A stretch of 64,000 nucleotides of DNA from Protoeuglena noctilucae (GCA_958009085.1 OY253682.1:496001-560000), one strand, 5' to 3'. Positions 1,533 through 10,616 are shown, numbered from the stretch's first letter. Numbers and translations are program-made. The notes: generated by a model from the letters alone, not told the origin.

Positions 1533-1606
1533 GGGGTTGTGGACTAGTGGCCTATGTTGTCTGCTTTGGGTGCAGAAGGTCCCGGGTTCGAATCCCGGCT
1601 ACCCCC
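1533..1606 (+). tRNA. tRNA-Pro (anticodon TGG)
   Basis: Cloverleaf: acceptor GGGGTTG/CTACCCC (one U-U pair), D-stem GACT/TGTT, anticodon stem TCTGC/GCAGA with loop TTTGGGT (TGG at 1567-1569), T-arm CCGGG-TTCGAAT-CCCGG, discriminator C. No encoded CCA. Confidence 0.95.
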
Positions 1607-1610
1607 TTTT
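1607..1610 (+). terminator. Pol III terminator (T4) of tRNA-Pro, with further T-runs to ~1668
   Basis: TTTT directly after the discriminator base, followed by a T-rich tract. Confidence 0.7.
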
Positions 1611-1674
1611 GTGTTTCTTCGGGATTTGCCGTTTTGATGACGGAAAGTTGTTTCTTTTGTTTTCTTTTATGCGC

Positions 1675-1691
1675 GGGGTGCAAGAACCCGG
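1675..1691 (+). mobile_element. Left stub of an old retroelement 3'-module relic (element C)
   Basis: GGGGTGCAAGAACCCGG is identical to 9385-9401 in the LINE 3' module. Similarity resumes at 10360-10462 once the younger insertions are removed. Confidence 0.7.
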
Positions 1692-1694
1692 CGT

Positions 1695-1789
1695 GGGGGG
1701 ACTCGGACGCGCGATGGCGCGATCCGCCGGCCGCCTCCTCGTGGCGCCCTCTGGACACCGCGCCTTTATGGCCGGTGACGAAGAGCCGG
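1695..1789 (+). ncRNA. HDV-like (double-pseudoknot) self-cleaving ribozyme
   Basis: P1 GGGGGG(1695-1700)/CCCTCT(1747-1752) with G1-U wobble. J1/2 hairpin 1704-1726. P2 CCGGCC(1727-1732)/G[A]GCCGG(1783-1789). P3 GCC/GGC with L3 TCCTCGT. P1.1 CC(1737-1738)/GG(1753-1754). P4 CACCG..CGGTG. J4/2 CGAA with catalytic C1779. Confidence 0.85.
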
Positions 1790-2480
1790 TTCACAAAAAA
1801 TGGCGCGGTGGCGCGCAGTGCGGTGGTTCGGCGGTGGTTTGGCCAAGGTGGAGGCTGGCGAGTTGGCGAGGGGGTGCGGTTGGGTGTTTTGCGTGCATTC
1901 GCGACGGCTGAGGCGGTCGCATATCCCCTGGCAGGCGCCAGGCGGCAGCACGACGCGCTCGAGTTCTGCTGGTCGGGACAAGCCGCGCCCCCGAGTCTAG
2001 GGGGGCTTTCGGGGCGCTGCGCGCTGTGTGCGTGCAGAGGGACGGCAGGCTTTCGTGACGGGGACGCAGAGCGACCGGCGGGACGCGGGGACCGCGCCGG
2101 TGGGACCAGGGTGGGGTCCATTGTTAGCATGGGGCGAAAGTGCTCTGCGCCGCGGCATGGGGGCTTGTCTCTGCTTCGTTGCTTCGATGTTGTAATAGTA
2201 CCCAGGGGCCCGCTCGCGTGGCATCCTGCGGTTGCTCGTCCCGGCAGGGGCGGCGGTTCGGCGAAGGGGCTAGGGGCGCTGGAGCCCGGGGCGGCGGCCC
2301 CATAGCCTTAGGGTGGGGGGACCTAGCGGGGGCGGGCCAAGTGCCATATGCACTGCGATAATGGAACCCCCGGGGTGCGGCAGCTCCGGGGGAAGGCGCC
2401 CCTGTCGCGCGGGCCTAGCTCGTGCGGCGAGGATCCTGATGGACCTCAGCACCCTCAGCTATTGAACTGCACATCATCAT
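1695..2480 (+). mobile_element. Non-autonomous retroelement copy A1 (~786 bp, SINE/SIDE-like): 5' HDV-like ribozyme, LINE-related 3' module, (CAT)3 tail
   Basis: 1701-2480 matches 9580-10359 with ~6 substitutions by eye. Ends in CATCATCAT (2472-2480). Flanked by CGT (1692-1694 / 2481-2483), with identity extending to CGTGGGGGGACTCGG. No credible ORF. Confidence 0.85.
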
Positions 2481-2496
2481 CGTGGGGGGACTCGGG

Positions 2497-5400
2497 GAGC
2501 GGAGGCGTCTGGAGAAGCAACTGGGACGGGCGGAGAGGAGGGCGCAGCGGACGAACGCGACGGAGGACTGGGACCGGATGCTAGACCTGCAGCGCCAGCT
2601 GACGGTGCTGGAGCAGCAGGAGGTCCAGTGGCAGAGCGAGCGGGCGAAGCACTTTCTGCGGGTCTTTGGGGCCGTGCCGAGTCGGCGGATCACGGCCCAT
2701 TTCAAGTGGCGGCGGCGGGCTGAGGGCGTCACGGACGACCTCGCGCGGGACCTGCAGACCAATATGGCCCAGCTCTACGCCCCCGCCGCGCCCCCGGCCT
2801 CCGCGGACGGCCAACATGAGCGGGCGCGCGCCAACTTCCTGCGCAACCCGCGGTCGCCGCTGTCGGAGGAGGCGAGGGCCGCTCTCGAGGCAGACGTGAC
2901 ACGGGCGGAGGCGGCTGAGGCGATACAGGGTCTACGGGGCGACAGCTGCGGTGGCGCGGACGGCATCTCCCCGGCGCTGCTCAAGGCGTGCCAGGGCACC
3001 GGGACCGAGGCGGGCGTCGAGCGGGTGGTCGCCTACTTCGTCAACAAGCTCCTCCGCGGCGAGGGGCACGACGGCCGCCTCGCGAACGCCGCCATCACGC
3101 TCATCCACAAGGGCGGCTCGCGGACGGACTGGCGGCGGTACCGCCCCATCTCCCTACTGTCCGTCCTCTACAAGGCTTCGGCCAAGGTGCTGACGGCGCG
3201 GCTGCTGCGGGTGATGCCGCAGCTCGTGCACGAGGACCAGTTGGGTTTCGTCCCCGGGCGTGACATTGGGACGGCCATCTACTCGCTGCATCTGCTCGAC
3301 GAGCTCATGCGCATCCGGCGGCAGTCTGCGTGGGCGGTGCTGGTGGACTTCGAACAGGCGTACGACACGGCCTTCCGGGGGTGGGCTGCGGACGCGATGG
3401 CGTGGGGAGGGCTCCCGCCGCGTTTTGTCAAGGCGGCGGTGGCGCTGCAGAGCGACAGCCGGGCGAGCCTGGTCCTCAACGGAGCGGCGGGGGAGCCGTT
3501 CCCGCTCAACCGGGGAGTCAAGCAGGGATGCCCCCTGAGCCCGCTCATCTTCGTGCTGGCGGTGGAGCCCCTCGCAGAGAGGCTGCGGGCGTGGGGCCAG
3601 GAGCCGGTGCAGCTGCCGGGCGGCCCGCGGTGCGACCGCGTGCTCGGCATCCGGACGACGGGCGGCAGGGCCGAGACGCTTCTGGCCTTCGCCGACGACT
3701 TCAACGTGCTGCTCCAACGGCTCGTGGGGCGCGACAGGAACCAACTCGACCCGTGGCGGGAGCTGGCCGAGGTGCTGCGGGACTTCCACCGTGTGTCCGG
3801 GCTGAAGGCGAGCCAGACCAAGACGAAGCTCTACCGACTGGGACGCATCAACAAGCGGCAGGAGGCCAAGGCCGCCGCGCAGGGCTGCCCGTGGGGGGTG
3901 GAGCCGGGGGGCGTGCGGCTGCTGGGGGCGCAGACGAGAGAGCAGGCGGCGCTGGTGTGGCCCGGGCGGCTGGGGGAGGCCCTGCGCCGCGCGGACGCGG
4001 CGTCATCGCTGGGACTGCCGATCCGGGGTCGGGCGCGCGTCGCCAACGCCTACATCACCTCGCTCGCGGGGTACCACCTGGAGATGTCCCCCGCCGCCGA
4101 CCACTCGTGCGTCGCTGACCTGCGGAGGGTCCAGGAGCGCTATGTCCTCAACGCACGATCGGCGGGGCAGGTGTGGTTCCGTGTGGGCCGCATCATGCTG
4201 ACCGCCCCGCCGGAGGAGGGGGGGCTGGGCGCCCTCCCGCTGGACGCGCACACGGCGGCGCGGCGGCTCCGGCACCTGGCGCGCGCCCTCATCACGAAGC
4301 GCGTGGGCGCTCACGGCCAGTTGGGCGGTCTCGCTGGCATCCTCACGGCGTGCCTGGAGGGGCTCGGGGCAGGCCGGCTGGGCCTGCTGCCCTTCTCACT
4401 GCCCGAGACGGACGGTTGCCACGTGGCGCAGTTGATCGAGTCCCGCCGCCTGCAGGGCAAGCTGCCGGCGCTCGAGAGCTTCTGCGACGCCATCAAGGGC
4501 CTCGGGTCCCTGCGCGCGACCCTCGGGCCCGCGCACGCGCCGCCACCTCTGGCACCCACGACGGACGAGGTCGCCCGGCAGCGCTGGACCGGCCTGGCGG
4601 CGGAGGGCCGGCTGACGCTCAACTTCGACGGGGGCTCGCGGGGCAACGGCTCCGACACGTCCACGGCTGGCGCGGGGGGCGGTACTGGCGGCCGGGGAAG
4701 GCGAGGGGGTGGAGACGCTGGAGCTCGCGGGCCCCGCCGTGTGCGGGGCCTCCAACAACCAGGCCGAGTTCGCCGCGCTTTTGGGAGGGCTACGCGCGGC
4801 AGTCGAGCTCGGCGCCACCAAGCTCCGCGTCCGGGGGGACTCCCTCCTCGTCATCCGCGCCATGGACCCGCGGGACTGCTCGGTGCTGCGGCACCCGGCG
4901 CTGGTGCCGCTGTGGACCGAGGCGCAGAGGCTCGCGGCGGGCCTCGACATCACTTGGGAGCACGTGCCACGGGAGCAGAACGCCCTGGCGGACCGCCTGT
5001 CCAACGTGGCCATGGACGGGCATGGCTGGCGGGGGGCGCGCGTGGGCGGCGGGGGCCTGGCGGGCACGGACGGCTCGCGTTTCGCCTCTTCTACGGACTT
5101 CTTCACCCCCGTCACTGGGACTACAAAGGGGGATCTACTCTGCGCGTCGCTTCTCACCCCGGGGGTCCTCTGTGCCGCCGGCGGGGGGGCTCCGGGCGCG
5201 GGGGTGGCAGGCCTGGGGGCGCCGGCGATGGAGGGGGCAGCTGGCTCTCTCCACAACGACATGGGACAGGACCAAGACGATTCGGCCTCGTCGCTCCACA
5301 GCTTCGCGACGGGCGCCCATGGGAGGGCTGGTGGGGCGTGGGTGCACGACGGCGCGTCGGGCGACGACAATTCGGATGATGGGATCGACGAGGGGGGTGC

Positions 5401-6579
5401 TGGGCGGCCGGCGGGGGGCTGCCGGCCCCTCCTTCTGCACCCGGTGGGGAGGGCGATGGCGTTACGGGGATTCGGAACTGTGGGGCATTATCTCTGCATG
5501 CGGAACCCGGCGCGGCGATGGGAGACGTGGGTCTCCTGGGCGGTCGCGCTGGGCTATGATCGGCTGCCGGGGGTGGATCGGGGGGCCTCGGCTGGGTGGT
5601 TGGGGCTTTTATGCGGGACTTGGGCCTCCTTGGGCCGGGCAACGAGTACGCCCGGCCAGACGTGGAGGGGCAATGGGACCCGTGGGACGGGCTGGCGCTC
5701 ACGGAAGGCTTCATGGAGCGCCTGCGACTCGCCTCCCCGGGCGGCGGGGAGGCCAACGACTTCTACCGGCCCATGACGGCCACCGCGCCGGGCTGGGCAC
5801 TGGACCCCGGCGTCGCCTCCAAGGCGGCGCTGGACCTGGCCTCCTACACGGTGCGGGAGGCGGCGAGGACGACGTGTGACAGGGCGGCGATCCGGCAGCG
5901 GCTGGAGCGCAAGGCGGAGGGCTGGGCGGCGGCGCTGGGGGAGGGACACGGCTTAACGGGAGAGGGATTGAGGCGCACGCTGGTGGCGCTCAACGGGCTG
6001 CCGCTGTCGGACGCCCTGCACGAGCGGCTGTGGCTGACGCTGGCGGACGGGTGGGCTACGCAGGACAGGATGTACTGGGCGGAGCGGGACGAGTGCCCGC
6101 TGCTGACGGAGGAGGGGGAGGCGTGCATGGGAAAGGACAGCGCGGCCCACGCGATCTGGGAGTGCTCGCGCGCACGGGAGGTGTGGCGCGTGGCGAGGGG
6201 CATCGTGGCGTGGGCGGGGGGGGCGCAGGGGGTGCCCCTCCGCCCGTCGGCCCTCTTCCTGCTGCGCGTGCCGGAGGGCGCGCGGTTGGGGCCGCTCACG
6301 TGGGCGGTCGTGGCGGGGGCGACCGTGCAGGTCATCTGGCGCAGGCGGCAGCAGCTGACGAAGGACGCGGGGGCGGACGCGTCCCCGGCACAGCTGTTCG
6401 CGCAGATGACGCGCATCATGGCCGAGGAGCTCGTCGCTCTGGCGGCGTACCAGGGCGGGCGGGCCCTCGCGCGCTGCACGCACCCTGACGACGCCCTCTT
6501 ACACCCAAGGGACCCGGCGAGGTCCACCTTCACCTACACTGCGCCCACATGGGCAGCCGTCGAGCCGCTACTCCCCTGA
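2497..6579 (+). pseudogene. LINE ORF2 remnant: reverse transcriptase, RNase H and CCHC zf-RVT-like domain, with two compensating frameshifts
   Basis: RT motifs YRPISLL, VDFEQAYD, RGVKQGCPLSP, FADD, SGLKASQTKT. RNase H FDGGSRGN..SNNQAE..GDS..HVPREQNALAD at ~4612-5017. Zinc finger ECPL..C..DSAAHAIWEC. Frame shifts at G6 4674-4679 and at ~5569-5585. Confidence 0.85.
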
Positions 6580-6989
6580 GGGGGCCTCTTCATTCGCAGC
6601 ACGCCATCACCCCACGACATTCGGGCCGGGGCGCCGGCGCCGGACGGGTGGCCTTCGGGCTGCTCGTTCCGGCGTCGGCGCCCCGGCCAACTGGGGCGTC
6701 CACGGCCACACTGAGCATCTACGGAAGAGCCCGTCTGCCGGCTAAAACAAGCTCCCCTGCACCCAGGATGATATGGGCTGGAGTACCGCACGGCGGCGCC
6801 ACCGGCGACCCCCTGGGCTGCCTGGCCGGAGCCGGAGCCTGAGAGGGGCCGCAGGCGGGGGGTCCACGCGATGCGCGCGCAGCCGCAGGGGCGTGGGGCG
6901 CGCTGTGGCGGCAAGGGCGGGCGCCTCACGGGGAGGGTGCCGGCGCTCGGCACACCAAGGGCTTCTGCGCACCCACGCTCCATCTTTCG

Positions 6990-7880
6990 CATGCCTCGCA
7001 GGTTCTCGGACGCACACTCGACAGCTTTACCCACACGCCTTCTCCTCACCTGCCCCGCAGCCGGCCATGCCACCCCACCCCAATCCGCATTACTCCCACA
7101 TCCACCCGACCGCATTGCTCCCACCAGGTCCCTATGCCAGCCCACTGCCTTCCTATGACACACTTTCCACCCCCCACATCCCACTGCACACGCACCCTGC
7201 CCCAGCAGCACTCACCCGCATGCCACGCCTCCCCGTCCATGCCCGCAGCTAACAGGTAGATGCCTCTTCCAACCCGACCACACACGCCGTCTAACTATCT
7301 GCACGCACCCTCGTCACTCATCTCCCGATCTCGCCGCTCAGCACCAGTCTTGCCCACTCACCGCGCATCACCACTGACATACACACGTTCACCTCTCAAC
7401 CCCCTCTCCTCTTCCACATGGACCCCCACATAAACCACCTTCCTGCTCAGCACGCATCATCTCCCACCCCCCTCCTGCCAGCCCCACGCCACACCCTTCT
7501 CACGGACCACGCCCCCACACACACCTCACCTCACACGCCCAACCAGACTCGCCCTTTTCGCAAACCCTCCTGCCCCACGCACTCCCCCCCTAGCTGCACA
7601 GGTAAGGCTCAGCACCCTCTCCTCACAGCTAGTGCCCAGGTGAGCACACGCCTCCCTCAGCGCATCACTCCCCACACACCAAGCACCACATACTGATCCA
7701 GCACAGCATCTGCACCCCCTGACCTCCCCCAATCACGCACAGACCTCCTCGCATCCTCCCACGGGCACCCTCTTTGCCAGCCGCAGGTCAGGACCCACAC
7801 CAACACTCATCCTCCGTCACGCACACCGGCACCTCTCCCTGACCGCAGACCTGGACGGACGCGCACACGCACCCTTGCCT
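6990..7880 (+). repeat. C/A-rich, G-poor low-complexity tract in the LINE 3' region
   Basis: Visible depletion of G with many CCAC/CACAC/CCCC words, unlike the G-rich flanks. Confidence 0.7.
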
Positions 7881-8618
7881 CACCCTAGCCCTTTGCAGCC
7901 ATGCATCGCAGGCCCTTGGTGTCCCACAGCCGCCAGCGCTCACCCGGGGGGCGTCTGCTCCGTCGCCGTCGTGGCGCGCCCAGCACACCCACGGTACTGC
8001 GCGTGCCGCGTGGCCTCCCCGCCCGTGGTCCTTCAGGGGCTCTGGCGCTGGTCGGGTGGGTCCGCGTGGGGGTCGCCAACGCGTCGCCTGTGCTCCAGCC
8101 AACGTGAGAGACCAGCCCCGCTGGGGGGGGCTGGCAAAGGGTGCGACGGGGGACAAACGTCGGGGCAGAGCTGGCAGTAACGGGCCGAGAGACTCAGACA
8201 GTGGCGAGAGACGTGGCGCCCGTGGGGCGGAACGCCGGGGATATCGTGGGAACACCCGGCAGTGGCGCAGAACGGACCAGGCGCCACAGGATCAGAGAGC
8301 GGCGTGGCTGCGACGAGGCGGGGAGAGTGGGAGCGCAAGCGGGGCCGGAGGGCCTGTCTTTGGGAGTCTGCTGAGGAGGCCCTGCAGGAGAGCAACGGAC
8401 GGCGTGGGGTGCTGGCGCCCGGCATGGTGGCGCTGGCGGGGGCGACCCCTCGCGCGACACACAGCAGGGCAGCGGGCTTTTGGGGGCGGGCGCGATGGCA
8501 GCGCGGCAAGAGCGAGCGGCGGCGGCGAGAGTAACACAAGGGGCATCGAATGGTGTGGGTGGGCATGGGCTGGGCGACACAGGGGTGTCGGGTGTTTGGG
8601 GGGGCGACGGGGGCGCGA

Positions 8619-8696
8619 GGCAGGCCACGGTTATCAGGGCGCGCGGGTGCGCGTGTGCGGGGGGCAGGCCTCGGTTATCAGGCGCGCGGGTGCGCG
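8619..8696 (+). repeat. Direct duplication of ~34 bp (period ~44 bp)
   Basis: GGCAGGCCACGGTTATCAGGGCGCGCGGGTGCGCG versus GGCAGGCCTCGGTTATCAGGCGCGCGGGTGCGCG. Confidence 0.8.
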
Positions 8697-8706
8697 GAGT
8701 GGGAGG

Positions 8707-8863
8707 TGGGCCAAGGTCGTCAGCGTTAAAGGGCCAGGGTCGCCACAGCGTCGGTTGAAGGTCGTCAGCGCATTTGGCCAAGGTCGTCAGCGTGATGGGC
8801 CAAGGTCGTCAGCGTGATGGGCCTAGGTCGCCAGCGTGACAGGCCAAGGTCATCTGGGCGTGT
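8707..8863 (+). repeat. Minisatellite of ~7 units of ~22 bp (consensus GGGCCAAGGTCGTCAGCGTGAT)
   Basis: Units start at ~8707, 8731, 8753, 8776, 8797, 8819 and 8841; degenerate half-units continue to ~8935. Confidence 0.85.
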
Positions 8864-9579
8864 GGGGGCGAGGAGTTGAGGGACGGGCCAGGGCCGACGG
8901 GCGCGGGAGAGGACGGGCCAAGGGCCAAGGTCGACGTGCGGGAGCGAGGAGCGGGGTAGCGTCGTGGGTCTCTGGGCACACGGCCGAGTGGGTCGTGCCG
9001 GCGCACGCACCCGGAGCGGGGCGGTCTGGGGCGGTCCATATGAGAGGCAGCCGGCCCTCAGGGGCGCAGCGTGGGCGAGCGGGGCGCCCAGGGGCAACGC
9101 TGCGCCCCCCAAGGAACGCCGTCTGCGTTCGGACCGGCCCCACCGCCCTCGCGTCCGGGCCAGCGTGGCCGGGTGGGCGAGCCAGCCGGGCCGCCTGAGG
9201 AGGATGGGAGGAGGGTAGGGAGCGGGGGATGTCATGATTGGCCGCACATAAGCTACACAGATCGTCATTAGCCTCGGCCTCACCTTTTGTAATAGACGCC
9301 CGGGGGTCTCCACGGAGGGCCCCCGCGGCTGCAACGTCCCACTCCGGGACGGCGATTCTGCCTTCGGGCGCAGCGAGGGGGCTAGGGGTGCAAGAACCCG
9401 GGGTGGGCGACCCCTTTGCCTTAGGGTGGGGCGACCTAGCGGGGGCGGGCCACGTGCCATATGCACTGCAACGATGGAAACCCCGGGGTGTCAGCTGCCC
9501 CGGGGGACGGCACTTCTGCCGCAAGGCGTGGCTCTGAGAGTCATAGCACCCCTCGACTGTTGAATCGCTCATCATCATC

Positions 9580-10359
9580 ACTCGGACGCGCGATGGCGCG
9601 ATCCGCCGGCCGCCTCCTCGTGGCGCCCTCTGGACACCGCGCCTTTATGGCCGGTGACGAAGAGCCGGTTCACAAAAAATGGCGCGGTGGCGCGCAGTGC
9701 GGTGGTTCGGCGGTGGTTTGGCCAAGGCGGAGGCTGGCGAGTTGGCGAGGGGGTGCGGTTGGGTGTTTTGCGTGCATTCGCGACGGCTGATGCGGTCGCA
9801 TATCCCCTGGCAGGCGCCAGGCGACAGCACGACGCGCTCGAGTTCTGCTGGTCGGGACAAGCCGCGCCCCCGAGTCTAGGGGGGCTTTCGGGGCGCTGCG
9901 CGCTGTGTGCGTGCAGAGGGACGGCAGGCTTTCGTGACGGGGACGCAGAGCGACCGGCGGGACGCGGGGACCGCGCCGGTGGGACCAGGGTGGGGTCCAT
10001 TGTTAGCATGGGGCGAAAGTGCTCTGCGCCGCGGCATGGGGGCTTGTCTCTGCTTCGTTGCTTCGATGTTGTAATAGTACCCAGGGGCCCGCTCGCGTGG
10101 CATCCTGCGGTTGCTCGTCCCGGCAGGGGCGGCGGTTCGGCGAAGGGGCTAGGGGCGCTGGAGCCCGGGGCGGCGGCCCCATAGCCTTAGGGTGGGGGGA
10201 CCTAGCGGGGGCGGGCCAAGTGCCATATGCACTGCGATCATGGAACCCCCGGGGTGCGGCAGCCCCGGGGGAAGGCGCCCCTGTCGCGCGGGCCTAGCTC
10301 GCGCGGCGAGGATCCTGATGGACCTCAGCACCCTCAGCTATTGAACTGCACATCATCAT
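9580..10359 (+). mobile_element. Non-autonomous retroelement copy A2; its 5' stub is stranded at 2484-2495 by the LINE insertion
   Basis: Near-identical to A1 with (CAT)3 tail at 10351-10359. Ribozyme core is retained (~9606-9668), but the P1 5' strand GGGGGG sits at 2484-2489. Confidence 0.85.
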
Positions 10360-10462
10360 CGTGAGCGGCGCTTGAGCGCAACGATGGAAAACCCAGGGCG
10401 CCAGCAGCACTGCGAGGATGGCACTTCTGCCGCAAGGCGTGGCTCTGAGAGTCACAGCACCT
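10360..10462 (+). mobile_element. Right part of the older, diverged 3'-module relic (element C)
   Basis: GCAACGATGGAAA..GGCACTTCTGCCGCAAGGCGTGGCTCTGAGAGTCACAGCACC matches 9468-9550 with mismatches and an internal deletion. Possible tail remnant CATCA at 10541-10545. Confidence 0.7.
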
Positions 10463-10616
10463 CTCCTGGCGCATCACACCAGCGAACACTGATCCCGCCT
10501 GCCGTCGTCCGTTCGCTGGTTCACAATCACTGCTACTAGTCATCAGGTATCGCTAGAAGGAACATAAGTAGAAACCCATCGTCACTAGATCACAGTCACG
10601 ACTCTACGCAAGCACC

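What the first reader, a model, noticed from the sequence alone, without database searches (positions are those of the whole stretch)
1695..2480. Ribozyme-headed, LINE-tailed non-coding element (SIDE-like partner of the LINE)
Seen: the ~786 bp element consists of a ribozyme (95 nt), ~400 nt of middle sequence and a ~290 nt 3' module homologous to the LINE 3' end, from TTGTAATAG (2190 vs 9287) to the (CAT)3 tail. The two copies differ at ~6 positions by eye (1849, 1912, 1945, 2360, 2385, 2423) with no indels. Inference: a recently active non-autonomous element that has a ribozyme in place of the tRNA-derived head of a SINE and borrows the RT of a B-related LINE. Its transcript could come from read-through of purL, which stops 143 bp before the tRNA on the same strand. 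Pol III read-through is less likely because T4 runs intervene.
Basis: partly seen in the sequence, partly recalled or inferred. Interest (0 to 1): 0.8.

Follow-up and report, generated by a model that had tools for sequence, protein, structure and literature searches.

The report
Ribozyme-headed parasite of a LINE retrotransposon
A 786-base non-coding mobile element in a GC-rich marine eukaryote starts with a fold like the hepatitis-delta-virus self-cutting RNA and ends with a copy of a LINE's tail, a design already known from insects and trypanosomes but here seen in a different kind of organism.

Summary
Element A (1695-2480) has a 95-nt head (1695-1789) that fits every helix of an HDV-like double pseudoknot. 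It has about 400 nt of unique middle and a 291-nt tail module homologous to the 3' end of the neighbouring LINE, ending (CAT)3.

The "second copy" is a tandem copy (2484-2495 plus 9580-10359). It is split by a 5'-truncated APE-RT-RNase H LINE that inserted into it.

Spurious ORFs called on other copies in public assemblies show four unrelated 5' flanks. All four diverge at the codon covering 1694-1696, which is the predicted cleavage site. Unique-flank contigs of two independent runs stop at 1724 (1694 plus 30, taking k = 31). Contig depth suggests roughly 5-7 copies.

My structural descriptor hits the window once, at 1695, against 2 hits in 1326 shuffled windows.

Not shown: catalysis, which LINE mobilises A, the source of the transcript, and whether full-length LINEs carry the ribozyme. 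Rfam scores are below threshold.

Verdict: a real, recently active element of the known SIDE / NARTc kind, and a new member from a new host lineage. Interest is moderate.

The parts
1533..1606 (+). tRNA-Pro(UGG), context only. It is followed by T4 runs and lies 88 bases upstream of the element.
   Evidence: ARAGORN; Rfam tRNA 54.7 bits; sequence.
1671..1694 (+). Upstream half of an older, diverged LINE-3'-end fragment into which the A pair inserted. Its last 3 bases, CGT (1692-1694), are the first copy of the putative target-site duplication.
   Evidence: Aligns with LINE 3' module 9383-9410; read from sequence.
1695..2480 (+). Element A, copy 1, full length (786 bases).
   Evidence: The 5' end is fixed by dispersed copies and by contig ends at 1724.
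1695..1789 (+). HDV-like ribozyme fold. P1 is 1695-1700 / 1747-1752, with a G1695-U1752 wobble at the predicted cleavage site. J1/2 is 1701-1726, with a hairpin at 1705-1725. P2 is 1727-1731 / 1785-1789. P3 is 1732-1735 / 1743-1746. L3 is UCCUCGU, 1736-1742. P1.1 is C1737, C1738 / G1754, G1753. P4 is 1756-1777. J4/2 is 1778-1784, with the candidate catalytic C1779 in CGAA.
   Evidence: MFE fold recovers P2, P3, P4 and the J1/2 hairpin. All pairs checked base by base. Descriptor hit is unique at 1695, against 2 hits in 1326 shuffles. Weak Rfam matches to three HDV-type families.
1790..2189 (+). Middle section. It is unique to A, has no similarity to the LINE body present in the window, and has no protein family.
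   Evidence: Sensitive blastn/tblastn best E 0.028 / 0.11; Pfam 0 families.
2190..2480 (+). 3' module homologous to the LINE 3' end, from TTGTAATAG to (CAT)3 at 2472-2480. It is the presumed recognition site for the reverse transcriptase.
   Evidence: In the two-sequence consensus fold, 6 of 73 pairs are kept through changes on both sides.
2481..2483 (+). CGT between the tandem copies. This is the second copy of the putative 3-base target-site duplication.
   Evidence: Read from sequence.
2484..2495 (+). First 12 bases (GGGGGGACTCGG) of element A copy 2, cut off from the rest by the LINE. ACTCGG (2490-2495) is repeated at 9580-9585.
2493..9579 (+). 5'-truncated LINE inserted into copy 2. It begins at residue 351 of the 1711-aa ORF (APE, RT, RNase H, C-terminal Cys/His region). 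It has two frameshifts (about 4675 and about 5580), an ORF end at 6579, a 3-kb 3' UTR and the tail CATCATCATC. CGG at 2493-2495 is shared with A (microhomology).
   Evidence: Full-length sequence is seen before 2493 in an RNA-library contig, and other flanks are seen behind 9580 (table 7).
9580..10359 (+). Element A copy 2, positions 7-786.
10360..10465 (+). CGT (third copy of the duplication) and the downstream half of the older LINE-3' fragment.
   Evidence: 10378-10465 matches 9468-9554 at 86%; alignment.

Best explanation
Element A is a non-autonomous non-LTR retroposon. It is transcribed as part of a longer RNA, or from a promoter not yet seen. The HDV-like ribozyme at its head cuts 5' of G1695 and so makes a defined 5' end without a promoter of its own. 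The 291-nt tail module, which copies the 3' end of an APE-RT-RNase H LINE family down to the (CAT)n tail, recruits that family's reverse transcriptase for target-primed reverse transcription. Full-length copies therefore all begin at G1695.

At this locus, two A insertions used the same CGT site inside an older LINE-tail fragment downstream of tRNA-Pro. A 5'-truncated LINE of the partner family then landed in the second copy.

Shown: the anatomy, the dispersed copies with one precise 5' end, the statistical rarity of the fold, the tail homology, and the presence of intact LINE ORFs elsewhere. Inferred: catalysis, the identity of the partner, the transcript source and the order of events.
For: Fold:
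- All five helices, L3 (UCCUCGU), the G-U wobble at the cleavage site and CGAA in J4/2 are present.
- My descriptor finds exactly one site in the window's 128 kb of two strands, at 1695.
- 1326 dinucleotide shuffles gave 2 hits in all.
- Of 111 usable natural metagenome sites that share the same 18-base core, 1 passed the whole descriptor. That one looks like a real ribozyme.
- The three HDV-type Rfam families are among the seven matches listed for 1685-1800.

5' end:
- In the 12-member ORF cluster plus the two window copies, four unrelated flanks run into the element. They are the window's (P0047, P0044), P0041, P0046/P0049 and P0048.
- All four diverge at the codon NGG covering 1694-1696. 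The upstream CGT is not conserved.
- Unique-flank contigs of X1 (16466 nt, depth 224) and X3 both end at 1724.

Copy number and recency:
- A-internal contigs have depth 1010-1090 against 224 in X1, and 39 against 5 in X3.
- The local copies are 99.2% identical. Other copies are 89-100% identical at the pseudo-protein level.

Tail.

Partner activity:
- Public contigs carry unbroken long ORFs: 1711 aa (P0023) and two copies that run unbroken to an earlier stop (P0022 1467 aa, P0021 1372 aa), while P0024 carries the same frameshift near residue 1078 as the window copy.
- Depth rises from about 720 to about 4300 toward the LINE's 3' end.
- LINE sequence is present in contigs of metatranscriptome libraries.

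The window holds no tRNA-like sequence in A and no protein family.
Against: - Rfam scores are far below the curated thresholds: drz-agam-1 18.4 against 37, HDV_ribozyme 15.7 against 50, HDV-F-prausnitzii 11.7 against 44. The MFE of the head is not better than shuffles (z = -0.79).
- The descriptor was written after the candidate had been seen.
- The copies are too alike to give any covariation.
- P1 has only 6 pairs, two of them G-U.
- The LINE tail is only about 83% identical to A's, so a closer partner may exist.
- The target-site duplication is only 3 bases at this locus and could not be checked at other copies.
- No RNA 5' end or strand information is available. RNA-library contigs may contain DNA.
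- One cluster member (P0051) departs from the others three to five bases inside the element (a substitution or a slight truncation).
Confidence: 0.72

Rival explanations
1. The element is a LINE-dependent retroposon, but its precise 5' end comes from a transcription start at G1695 (an internal or adjacent promoter). The HDV-like fold is inactive or serves only as a protein-binding or translation-type structure.
For: No cleavage data exist. Rfam scores are below threshold. The MFE z-score is unremarkable. In L1Tc the same 77 nt act as both promoter and ribozyme (abstract of PMC3383444), so a promoter in the head is conceivable.
Against: A complete double-pseudoknot descriptor match at the very base where copies begin is very unlikely by chance. 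The head is unchanged at the pseudo-protein level in three of the four full-length flanked copies, and the fourth (P0048) has one change that lies in J1/2.
Confidence: 0.12
2. A is not a separate element. It is the 3' cleavage product, or a recurrent 5' truncation, of a longer LINE whose 3' UTR contains the ribozyme. The true master copy would then have conserved sequence upstream of 1695.
For: The whole genome could not be searched. The window's LINE has a 3-kb 3' UTR, so long UTRs occur in this family.
Against: Four of four flanked full-length copies have unrelated upstream sequence. The other two contexts are LINE tails abutting A at positions 7 and about 30, not LINE UTR. The window LINE's UTR has no similarity to A's first 500 bases. 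An exhaustive HMMER search of 1.84 billion representatives found the head's peptide only in A-type ORFs: 2 clusters, both A.
Confidence: 0.06
3. The two 786-base copies are terminal repeats of one composite element (LTR-like or Penelope-like pseudo-LTRs around an RT gene), or a purely local duplication.
For: Direct repeats of 99.2% identity flank an RT-bearing segment.
Against: The internal LINE is 5'-truncated at ORF residue 351. It is flanked by ACTCGG on both sides and interrupts copy 2 at base 12, leaving copy 1 as a complete upstream neighbour. A copies uninterrupted at that point occur on other contigs with other flanks. LINE 3' ends occur with other downstream flanks (table 7).
Confidence: 0.02

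Closest known systems
R2 SIDEs and R2/R1 hybrid SIDEs of Drosophila (Eickbush and Eickbush 2012, PMC3414825; abstract and outline read)
   Same: A short non-coding element made of a 5' HDV-like ribozyme joined to the 3' end of a non-LTR retrotransposon. It is propagated by the autonomous element's target-primed reverse transcription. The ribozyme makes the 5' end from a co-transcript.
   Different: SIDEs sit at fixed sites in rRNA genes, and their partners are the R2 and R1 elements of those loci. Here the partner has an AP-type endonuclease plus RNase H, and insertions are dispersed. There are about 400 nt of middle sequence of unknown origin. Derivation by internal deletion is not shown.
NARTc / L1Tc of Trypanosoma cruzi and the Pr77-bearing RIME, SIDER and related elements of trypanosomatids (PMC3383444, PMC3185411, PMC4035085; abstracts read)
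   Same: A non-autonomous partner shares an HDV-like ribozyme head with, and depends on, an APE-type LINE. The elements are dispersed and often tandem or clustered.
   Different: In trypanosomatids the head is a 77-nt hallmark shared by LINE and partner, and it doubles as a promoter. Here it is unknown whether the LINE has the head at all. Tails differ as well: here a (CAT)n tail with a 290-nt structured module.
HDV-like ribozymes at the 5' ends of R4, Dong, baggins, RTE and L1Tc LINEs (passages of PMC3774820 and PMC6765202 read)
   Same: Cleavage occurs at the element's first base. P1 of 6-7 pairs, P2 of at least 5 pairs and a variable J1/2 and P4 are within the range described for R2 ribozymes (PMC3774820). 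The ribozyme frees promoter-less elements from co-transcripts.
   Different: Those are autonomous elements of animals or trypanosomes. This one is non-coding and sits in a GC-rich marine eukaryote of undetermined lineage.
Ribozyme-bearing non-autonomous elements with other motifs: hammerhead SINEs of schistosomes, retrozymes, and twister-variant LINEs and SINEs of Schistosoma (passages of PMC6765202; listings of PMC4918200 and PMC8501958)
   Same: A self-cleaving RNA serves as a processing module of a non-autonomous retroelement.
   Different: The ribozyme class is different. For retrozymes the replication route also differs (LTR-type, circular RNA).

Membership tests
HDV-like self-cleaving ribozyme | Nested double pseudoknot with P1, P1.1, P2, P3 and P4 in the canonical strand order, the P1 3' strand directly after P3 | tested here: met
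   All pairs verified base by base. P2, P3 and P4 are recovered by MFE folding. The descriptor hit is unique at 1695, with 2 hits in 1326 shuffles.
HDV-like self-cleaving ribozyme | Conserved core: 7-nt L3 of type UNCNCG N, two-pair P1.1, G-U wobble at the cleavage site, and a cytosine in J4/2 within CNRA (motifs recalled from the literature, not taken from a call) | tested here: met
   L3 is UCCUCGU. P1.1 is CC/GG. The wobble is G1695-U1752. C1779 lies in CGAA.
HDV-like self-cleaving ribozyme | Reaches the curated Rfam gathering score of an HDV-type family | tested here: not met
   drz-agam-1 18.4 / 37, HDV_ribozyme 15.7 / 50, HDV-F-prausnitzii 11.7 / 44. The models cannot pair P1 across the 26-nt J1/2 and place P1 wrongly.
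HDV-like self-cleaving ribozyme | Compensatory changes that keep the helices across relatives | tested here: inconclusive
   The copies are nearly identical in the head. An unrelated metagenome site (L066) shares the core with a fully different but complementary P1, but it is not a homologue of the element.
HDV-like self-cleaving ribozyme | Site-specific self-cleavage that depends on the J4/2 cytosine | not testable with these tools
   Needs a transcription/cleavage assay.
LINE-dependent non-autonomous retroposon (SIDE / NARTc type) | No coding capacity of its own | tested here: met
   No Pfam family on the long ORFs of either strand. The ORF relatives are only other A copies. A frameshifted variant exists (P0053).
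LINE-dependent non-autonomous retroposon (SIDE / NARTc type) | 3' end homologous to that of an autonomous LINE in the same genome, including the tail | tested here: met
   The LINE family has public copies with unbroken long ORFs, 1711 aa in P0023.
LINE-dependent non-autonomous retroposon (SIDE / NARTc type) | Dispersed copies with unrelated flanks and target-site duplications | tested here: inconclusive
   Four unrelated 5' flanks and other 3' flanks (table 7) are met. The duplication is seen only here (CGT three times) and is too short to be proof. Other loci could not be fetched.
SIDE in the strict sense (short internally deleted element) | Head and tail both derive from one full-length element that carries the same ribozyme | not testable with these tools
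   No DNA of a full-length LINE 5' end could be obtained. Contigs run unbranched from the head into A's middle in X1 and X3 (records 7 and 22). This argues against an identical head on another element.
Canonical SINE | Head derived from tRNA, 7SL or 5S RNA, with an internal Pol III promoter | tested here: not met
   ARAGORN and Rfam find only the neighbouring tRNA-Pro and nothing inside A.

The most novel reading that the evidence does not exclude
The ribozyme head may not be inherited from the partner LINE. Element A would then be a SINE analogue that captured an HDV-like ribozyme independently, as a promoter-free device for defining its 5' end, and joined it to a borrowed LINE tail, in a marine protist or algal lineage outside animals and trypanosomatids. 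The clustering of these elements in each other's tails, and downstream of a tRNA gene, would then reflect a targeting habit that supplies the read-through transcripts the ribozyme needs.
Probability: 0.28. Interest if true: 0.6.

Novelty: new member of a known kind. Interest (0 to 1): 0.42.

Why it matters
It extends the ribozyme-head plus LINE-tail design, described so far for insect rDNA elements, trypanosomatid elements and "a diverse variety of metazoans" (PMC6765202), to a GC-rich marine eukaryote and to an APE-RT-RNase H LINE family.

It also gives a clean test case. There is one precise 5' end in several recent copies, a nearly textbook core, and a natural C-to-T change of the presumed catalytic base in a dead copy.

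In practice it matters for annotation. Gene callers in public assemblies have turned these copies into at least 12 hypothetical "proteins", and have fused LINE fragments to real genes.

If full-length LINEs lack the head, it would be an example of independent ribozyme capture by a SINE-like element.

Tried and rejected
- **Own genome.** None is held.
- **Earlier findings of this scan.** Nothing on this genome, this sequence or the LINE. A word search returned three unrelated bacterial items.
- **Metagenome scan.** I scanned with an 18-specified-base ribozyme core. The pattern was too loose.
- **Exact 26-base core.** 0 matches in viral contigs and 0 in genome contigs.
- **LINE protein.** In genome contigs it gave 2 weak, irrelevant prokaryotic matches. 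In viral contigs it gave none.
- **Consequence.** No DNA of a full-length LINE 5' end was obtained.
- **Rfam at gathering thresholds.** Only the tRNA was found.
- **Head peptide in other contexts.** A HMMER search of 1.84 billion representatives gave only two A-type clusters. This is weak negative evidence, since it sees only called ORFs in one frame.
- **A's first 506 bases against the LINE body and LINE proteins.** Nothing better than E 0.028 / 0.11.
- **Host lineage from a purL exon.** The 'longer' protein search returned nothing, so the lineage stays undetermined.
- **RNA cover.** Among the contig pieces listed, none from the two RNA libraries covers 1491-1858 or bridges purL to the element. 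Contigs cannot show absence, ends or strand, so nothing is concluded about read-through or about an RNA starting at G1695.
- **Literature search.** One search failed on term syntax and was not repeated.

Full report
**Setting.** The window is eukaryotic and GC-rich (62-76% over the first 12 kb). A purL gene with GT..AG introns ends at 1387-1389; the introns are confirmed by spliced contigs in an RNA library (table 5). tRNA-Pro(UGG) lies at 1533-1606. No whole genome is held. The stretch 1300-2600 is held at half or more of its sampled words by 9 public runs, among them isolate-labelled runs and marine metagenomes, and 4 of the runs that hold it are on record as RNA (marine metatranscriptomes, 44-54% of the words).

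**The observation.**
- The 786-base element at 1695-2480 is repeated at 9580-10359 from its base 7 onward.
- Its last 291 bases align with the 3' end of the LINE that ends at 9579, from TTGTAATAG to the tail. The core is 83% identical over 150 bases.
- All three ends read CATCATCATC. That decamer occurs only at these three places in the window, against 0.06 expected.

**The local architecture.**
- Copy 1 is followed by CGT and then by GGGGGGACTCGG (2484-2495), the first 12 bases of the element.
- LINE sequence follows. Behind the LINE's tail the element resumes with ACTCGGACG... (9580).
- So two A copies stood in tandem, and a LINE inserted into the second one. The duplication is up to 6 bases (ACTCGG). 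Its last three bases can equally be read as LINE sequence, which is microhomology (table 7, loose end before 2493).
- The LINE is 5'-truncated. It starts at residue 351 of a 1711-aa ORF known from public contigs (P0023). That ORF has an AP-type endonuclease (32-262), a reverse transcriptase (563-798), an RNase H (1058-1188) and a C-terminal Cys/His region.
- The window's LINE copy has two frameshifts. Contigs of three or four of the four runs read one base fewer at 4674 and one more behind 5579, so other copies differ from the window copy at both frameshift sites (table 4).
- CGT stands before copy 1, between the copies and after copy 2.
- The sequence on either side of the pair (1671-1694 and 10360-10465) is itself a diverged fragment of a LINE 3' end.
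- The simplest reading has three steps. First, an old LINE-tail fragment lay downstream of the tRNA. Second, two A insertions used the same CGT site. Third, the LINE inserted.

**The head.**
- From G1695 the RNA can form P1 (GGGGGG with CCCUCU, the first pair a G-U wobble). A 26-nt J1/2 with its own hairpin follows.
- Then come P2 (5 pairs), P3 (4 pairs) around the loop UCCUCGU, a two-pair P1.1 between that loop and GG after P1, a P4 hairpin, and J4/2 with C1779 in CGAA.
- MFE folding, which cannot see pseudoknots, returns P2, P3, P4 and the J1/2 hairpin. Its energy is not unusual (z = -0.79).
- These dimensions are within those described for R2 ribozymes: P1 of 6 or 7 pairs, P2 of at least 5, and J1/2 and P4 highly variable (PMC3774820, passages read).
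- Rfam gives only sub-threshold matches. Three of the seven listed for 1685-1800 are HDV-type families. They align the core correctly but misplace P1 because of the long J1/2.
- I wrote a structural descriptor after seeing the candidate, so it controls only for composition. It requires P3, an L3 of type UNCNCGN, P1.1, a P1 of 6-7 pairs starting G-U, a P2 of at least 5 pairs, CNRA in J4/2, and a P4 stem.
- The descriptor hits the window once on either strand, at 1695. In 1326 dinucleotide-preserving shuffles of the window it hit twice in all.
- As a natural-sequence control I used 111 usable metagenome sites (of 120) that share the 18-base core by the design of my scan. Of these, 28 kept the core conditions, 5 had a P1 partner, and 1 passed everything.
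- That one (L066, a contig of 41% GC) has a different but fully complementary 7-pair P1 and looks like a genuine ribozyme of another organism.

**The 5' end in other copies.**
- I could not fetch other loci as DNA. Instead I used the long spurious ORF that runs through the head (1547-2305) as a probe in the protein collection.
- It finds one 90% cluster of 12 members on contigs of many sizes. An exhaustive HMMER search of 1.84 billion representatives adds only a frameshifted variant.
- In the alignment, four unrelated N-terminal flanks run into the element: the window's own (P0047; P0044 has the same flank), P0041, P0046/P0049 and P0048.
- All four become identical from the codon after NGG, where N is T, C or A, G and T. 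That codon covers 1694-1696, so the shared sequence starts at G1695. The codon before it differs in every flank, so the CGT is target sequence and not part of the element.
- One member (P0051, on a 765-base contig) deviates three to five bases inside. Four members start internally and say nothing.
- One member (P0043, on a contig of the same length as the window's, 1,004,614 bases) has a LINE tail abutting the element at about base 30. It carries Thr to Met at the codon of C1779. That means the presumed catalytic C, in a CpG, has become T in a copy that lacks P1 anyway.
- Independently, the unique-flank contigs of X1 (16466 nt, depth 224, no mismatch) and of the metagenome X3 both end at 1724 (table 8). 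For contigs built on 31-letter words, 1724 is 30 bases past the last unique base, 1694. The word length is my recollection of how Logan contigs are made. It agrees with the 31-letter index named.

**Copy number and activity.**
- A-internal contigs have depth 1010 and 1090 against 224 for the flank in X1, and 39 against about 5 in X3. That suggests about 5-7 copies. The tool warns that summed contig depth is not a copy number.
- LINE depth rises from about 720 at the 5' end of the window copy to about 4300 near the tail. This is the profile of a family with many 5'-truncated copies.
- Table 5 shows further junctions in which a tail is followed directly, or after 34 bases, by a short 3' fragment of A or of the LINE. 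These elements therefore tend to pile up at each other's tails.
- A 623-nt contig of an RNA library covers 1859-2481 with 6 differences. The same libraries hold LINE contigs, including sequence of full-length copies upstream of the window's truncation point.
- Such libraries can hold DNA, and contigs show no ends or strand.

**What stays open.**
- Catalysis is inferred from structure and position only.
- The partner is inferred from tail homology. At 83% a closer LINE subfamily may exist.
- It is unknown whether full-length LINEs carry a ribozyme. Contigs run unbranched from the head into A's middle in X1 (9581-10035) and X3 (9581-10062). The head's peptide occurs only in A-type ORFs. Both argue against an identical head on another element, but not against a diverged one.
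- The transcript source is unknown. purL read-through is untested.
- A joint in X1 linking a tRNA-like 3' part (up to 1598) to 1696 has only 22 letters on one side. It may be another copy near a tRNA gene, and it is left unexplained.

**Comparison with what is known.**
- The design, an HDV-like ribozyme at the head and a LINE 3' end at the tail with no ORF, is that of the R2 and R2/R1 SIDEs of Drosophila (PMC3414825, abstract). It is also that of NARTc and other Pr77-bearing elements of trypanosomatids (PMC3383444, PMC3185411, PMC4035085, abstracts).
[quoted passage not shown] It also states that promoter-less elements rely on co-transcription (PMC6765202, passages).
- My two working literature searches listed no report of such an element in algae or marine protists. 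This covers only the open-access library searched.
- I therefore file it as a new member of a known kind. It is not a canonical SINE (no Pol III-type head). 'SIDE' in the strict sense is untested.

Noticed in passing
L066:2522-2648 (+): A metagenome contig of 41% GC, caught only because it shares the 18-base core pattern, passes the whole HDV-like descriptor. Its 7-pair P1 (GGCAGUC / GACUGCU) is different from the window's but complementary. Rfam at gathering thresholds finds nothing on the contig. It is probably an unannotated HDV-like ribozyme of an unrelated organism.
   Followed up: partly
P0043 (public contig of 1,004,614 bases, the same length as the window's contig): Another locus where a LINE tail abuts element A, here at about base 30. 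This copy lacks the P1 5' strand. It has Thr to Met at the codon of C1779, so the presumed catalytic cytosine (in a CpG) is changed.
   Followed up: partly
window 6580-9290: The LINE has an unusually long 3' UTR of about 3 kb. It includes a strongly C-rich stretch (GC skew -0.59 to -0.43 at 7001-8000) and a 22-base tandem repeat (8709-8851, about 4-6 units).
   Followed up: no
window 2481, 9581 and 10360 (joints, table 5): Contigs of X1, and partly of the RNA libraries, join an A or LINE tail directly, or after 34 other bases, to short 3' fragments of A or of the LINE (2481 to 9525, 9581 to 10341, 10360 to 2423). This suggests repeated insertion next to existing tails.
   Followed up: no
window 9714 (table 7, run X9): One contig of an RNA library leaves element A after 9714 and continues into telomere-like repeats (TTAGGG / TTTAGGG variants). 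At least one A fragment therefore lies next to such repeats.
   Followed up: no
window 1598 to 1696 (table 5, run X1): A near-single-copy contig joins sequence like the 3' part of the tRNA to the start of element A. Only 22 letters lie on the shorter side. It may be another copy downstream of a tRNA gene or a chance overlap.
   Followed up: no
P0007, P0041-P0053 (public gene models): Public assemblies carry gene models made from these repeats. There are 12 'proteins' read from element A's spurious ORF. One 757-aa model fuses EGF-type domains to a 5'-truncated LINE fragment.
   Followed up: partly
window 4674 and 5579: The window's LINE copy differs by one base at each of two sites from contigs of the four runs laid (all four at 4674, three of four at 5579). 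This explains its two frameshifts. The public copy P0024 shares the first of them.
   Followed up: partly
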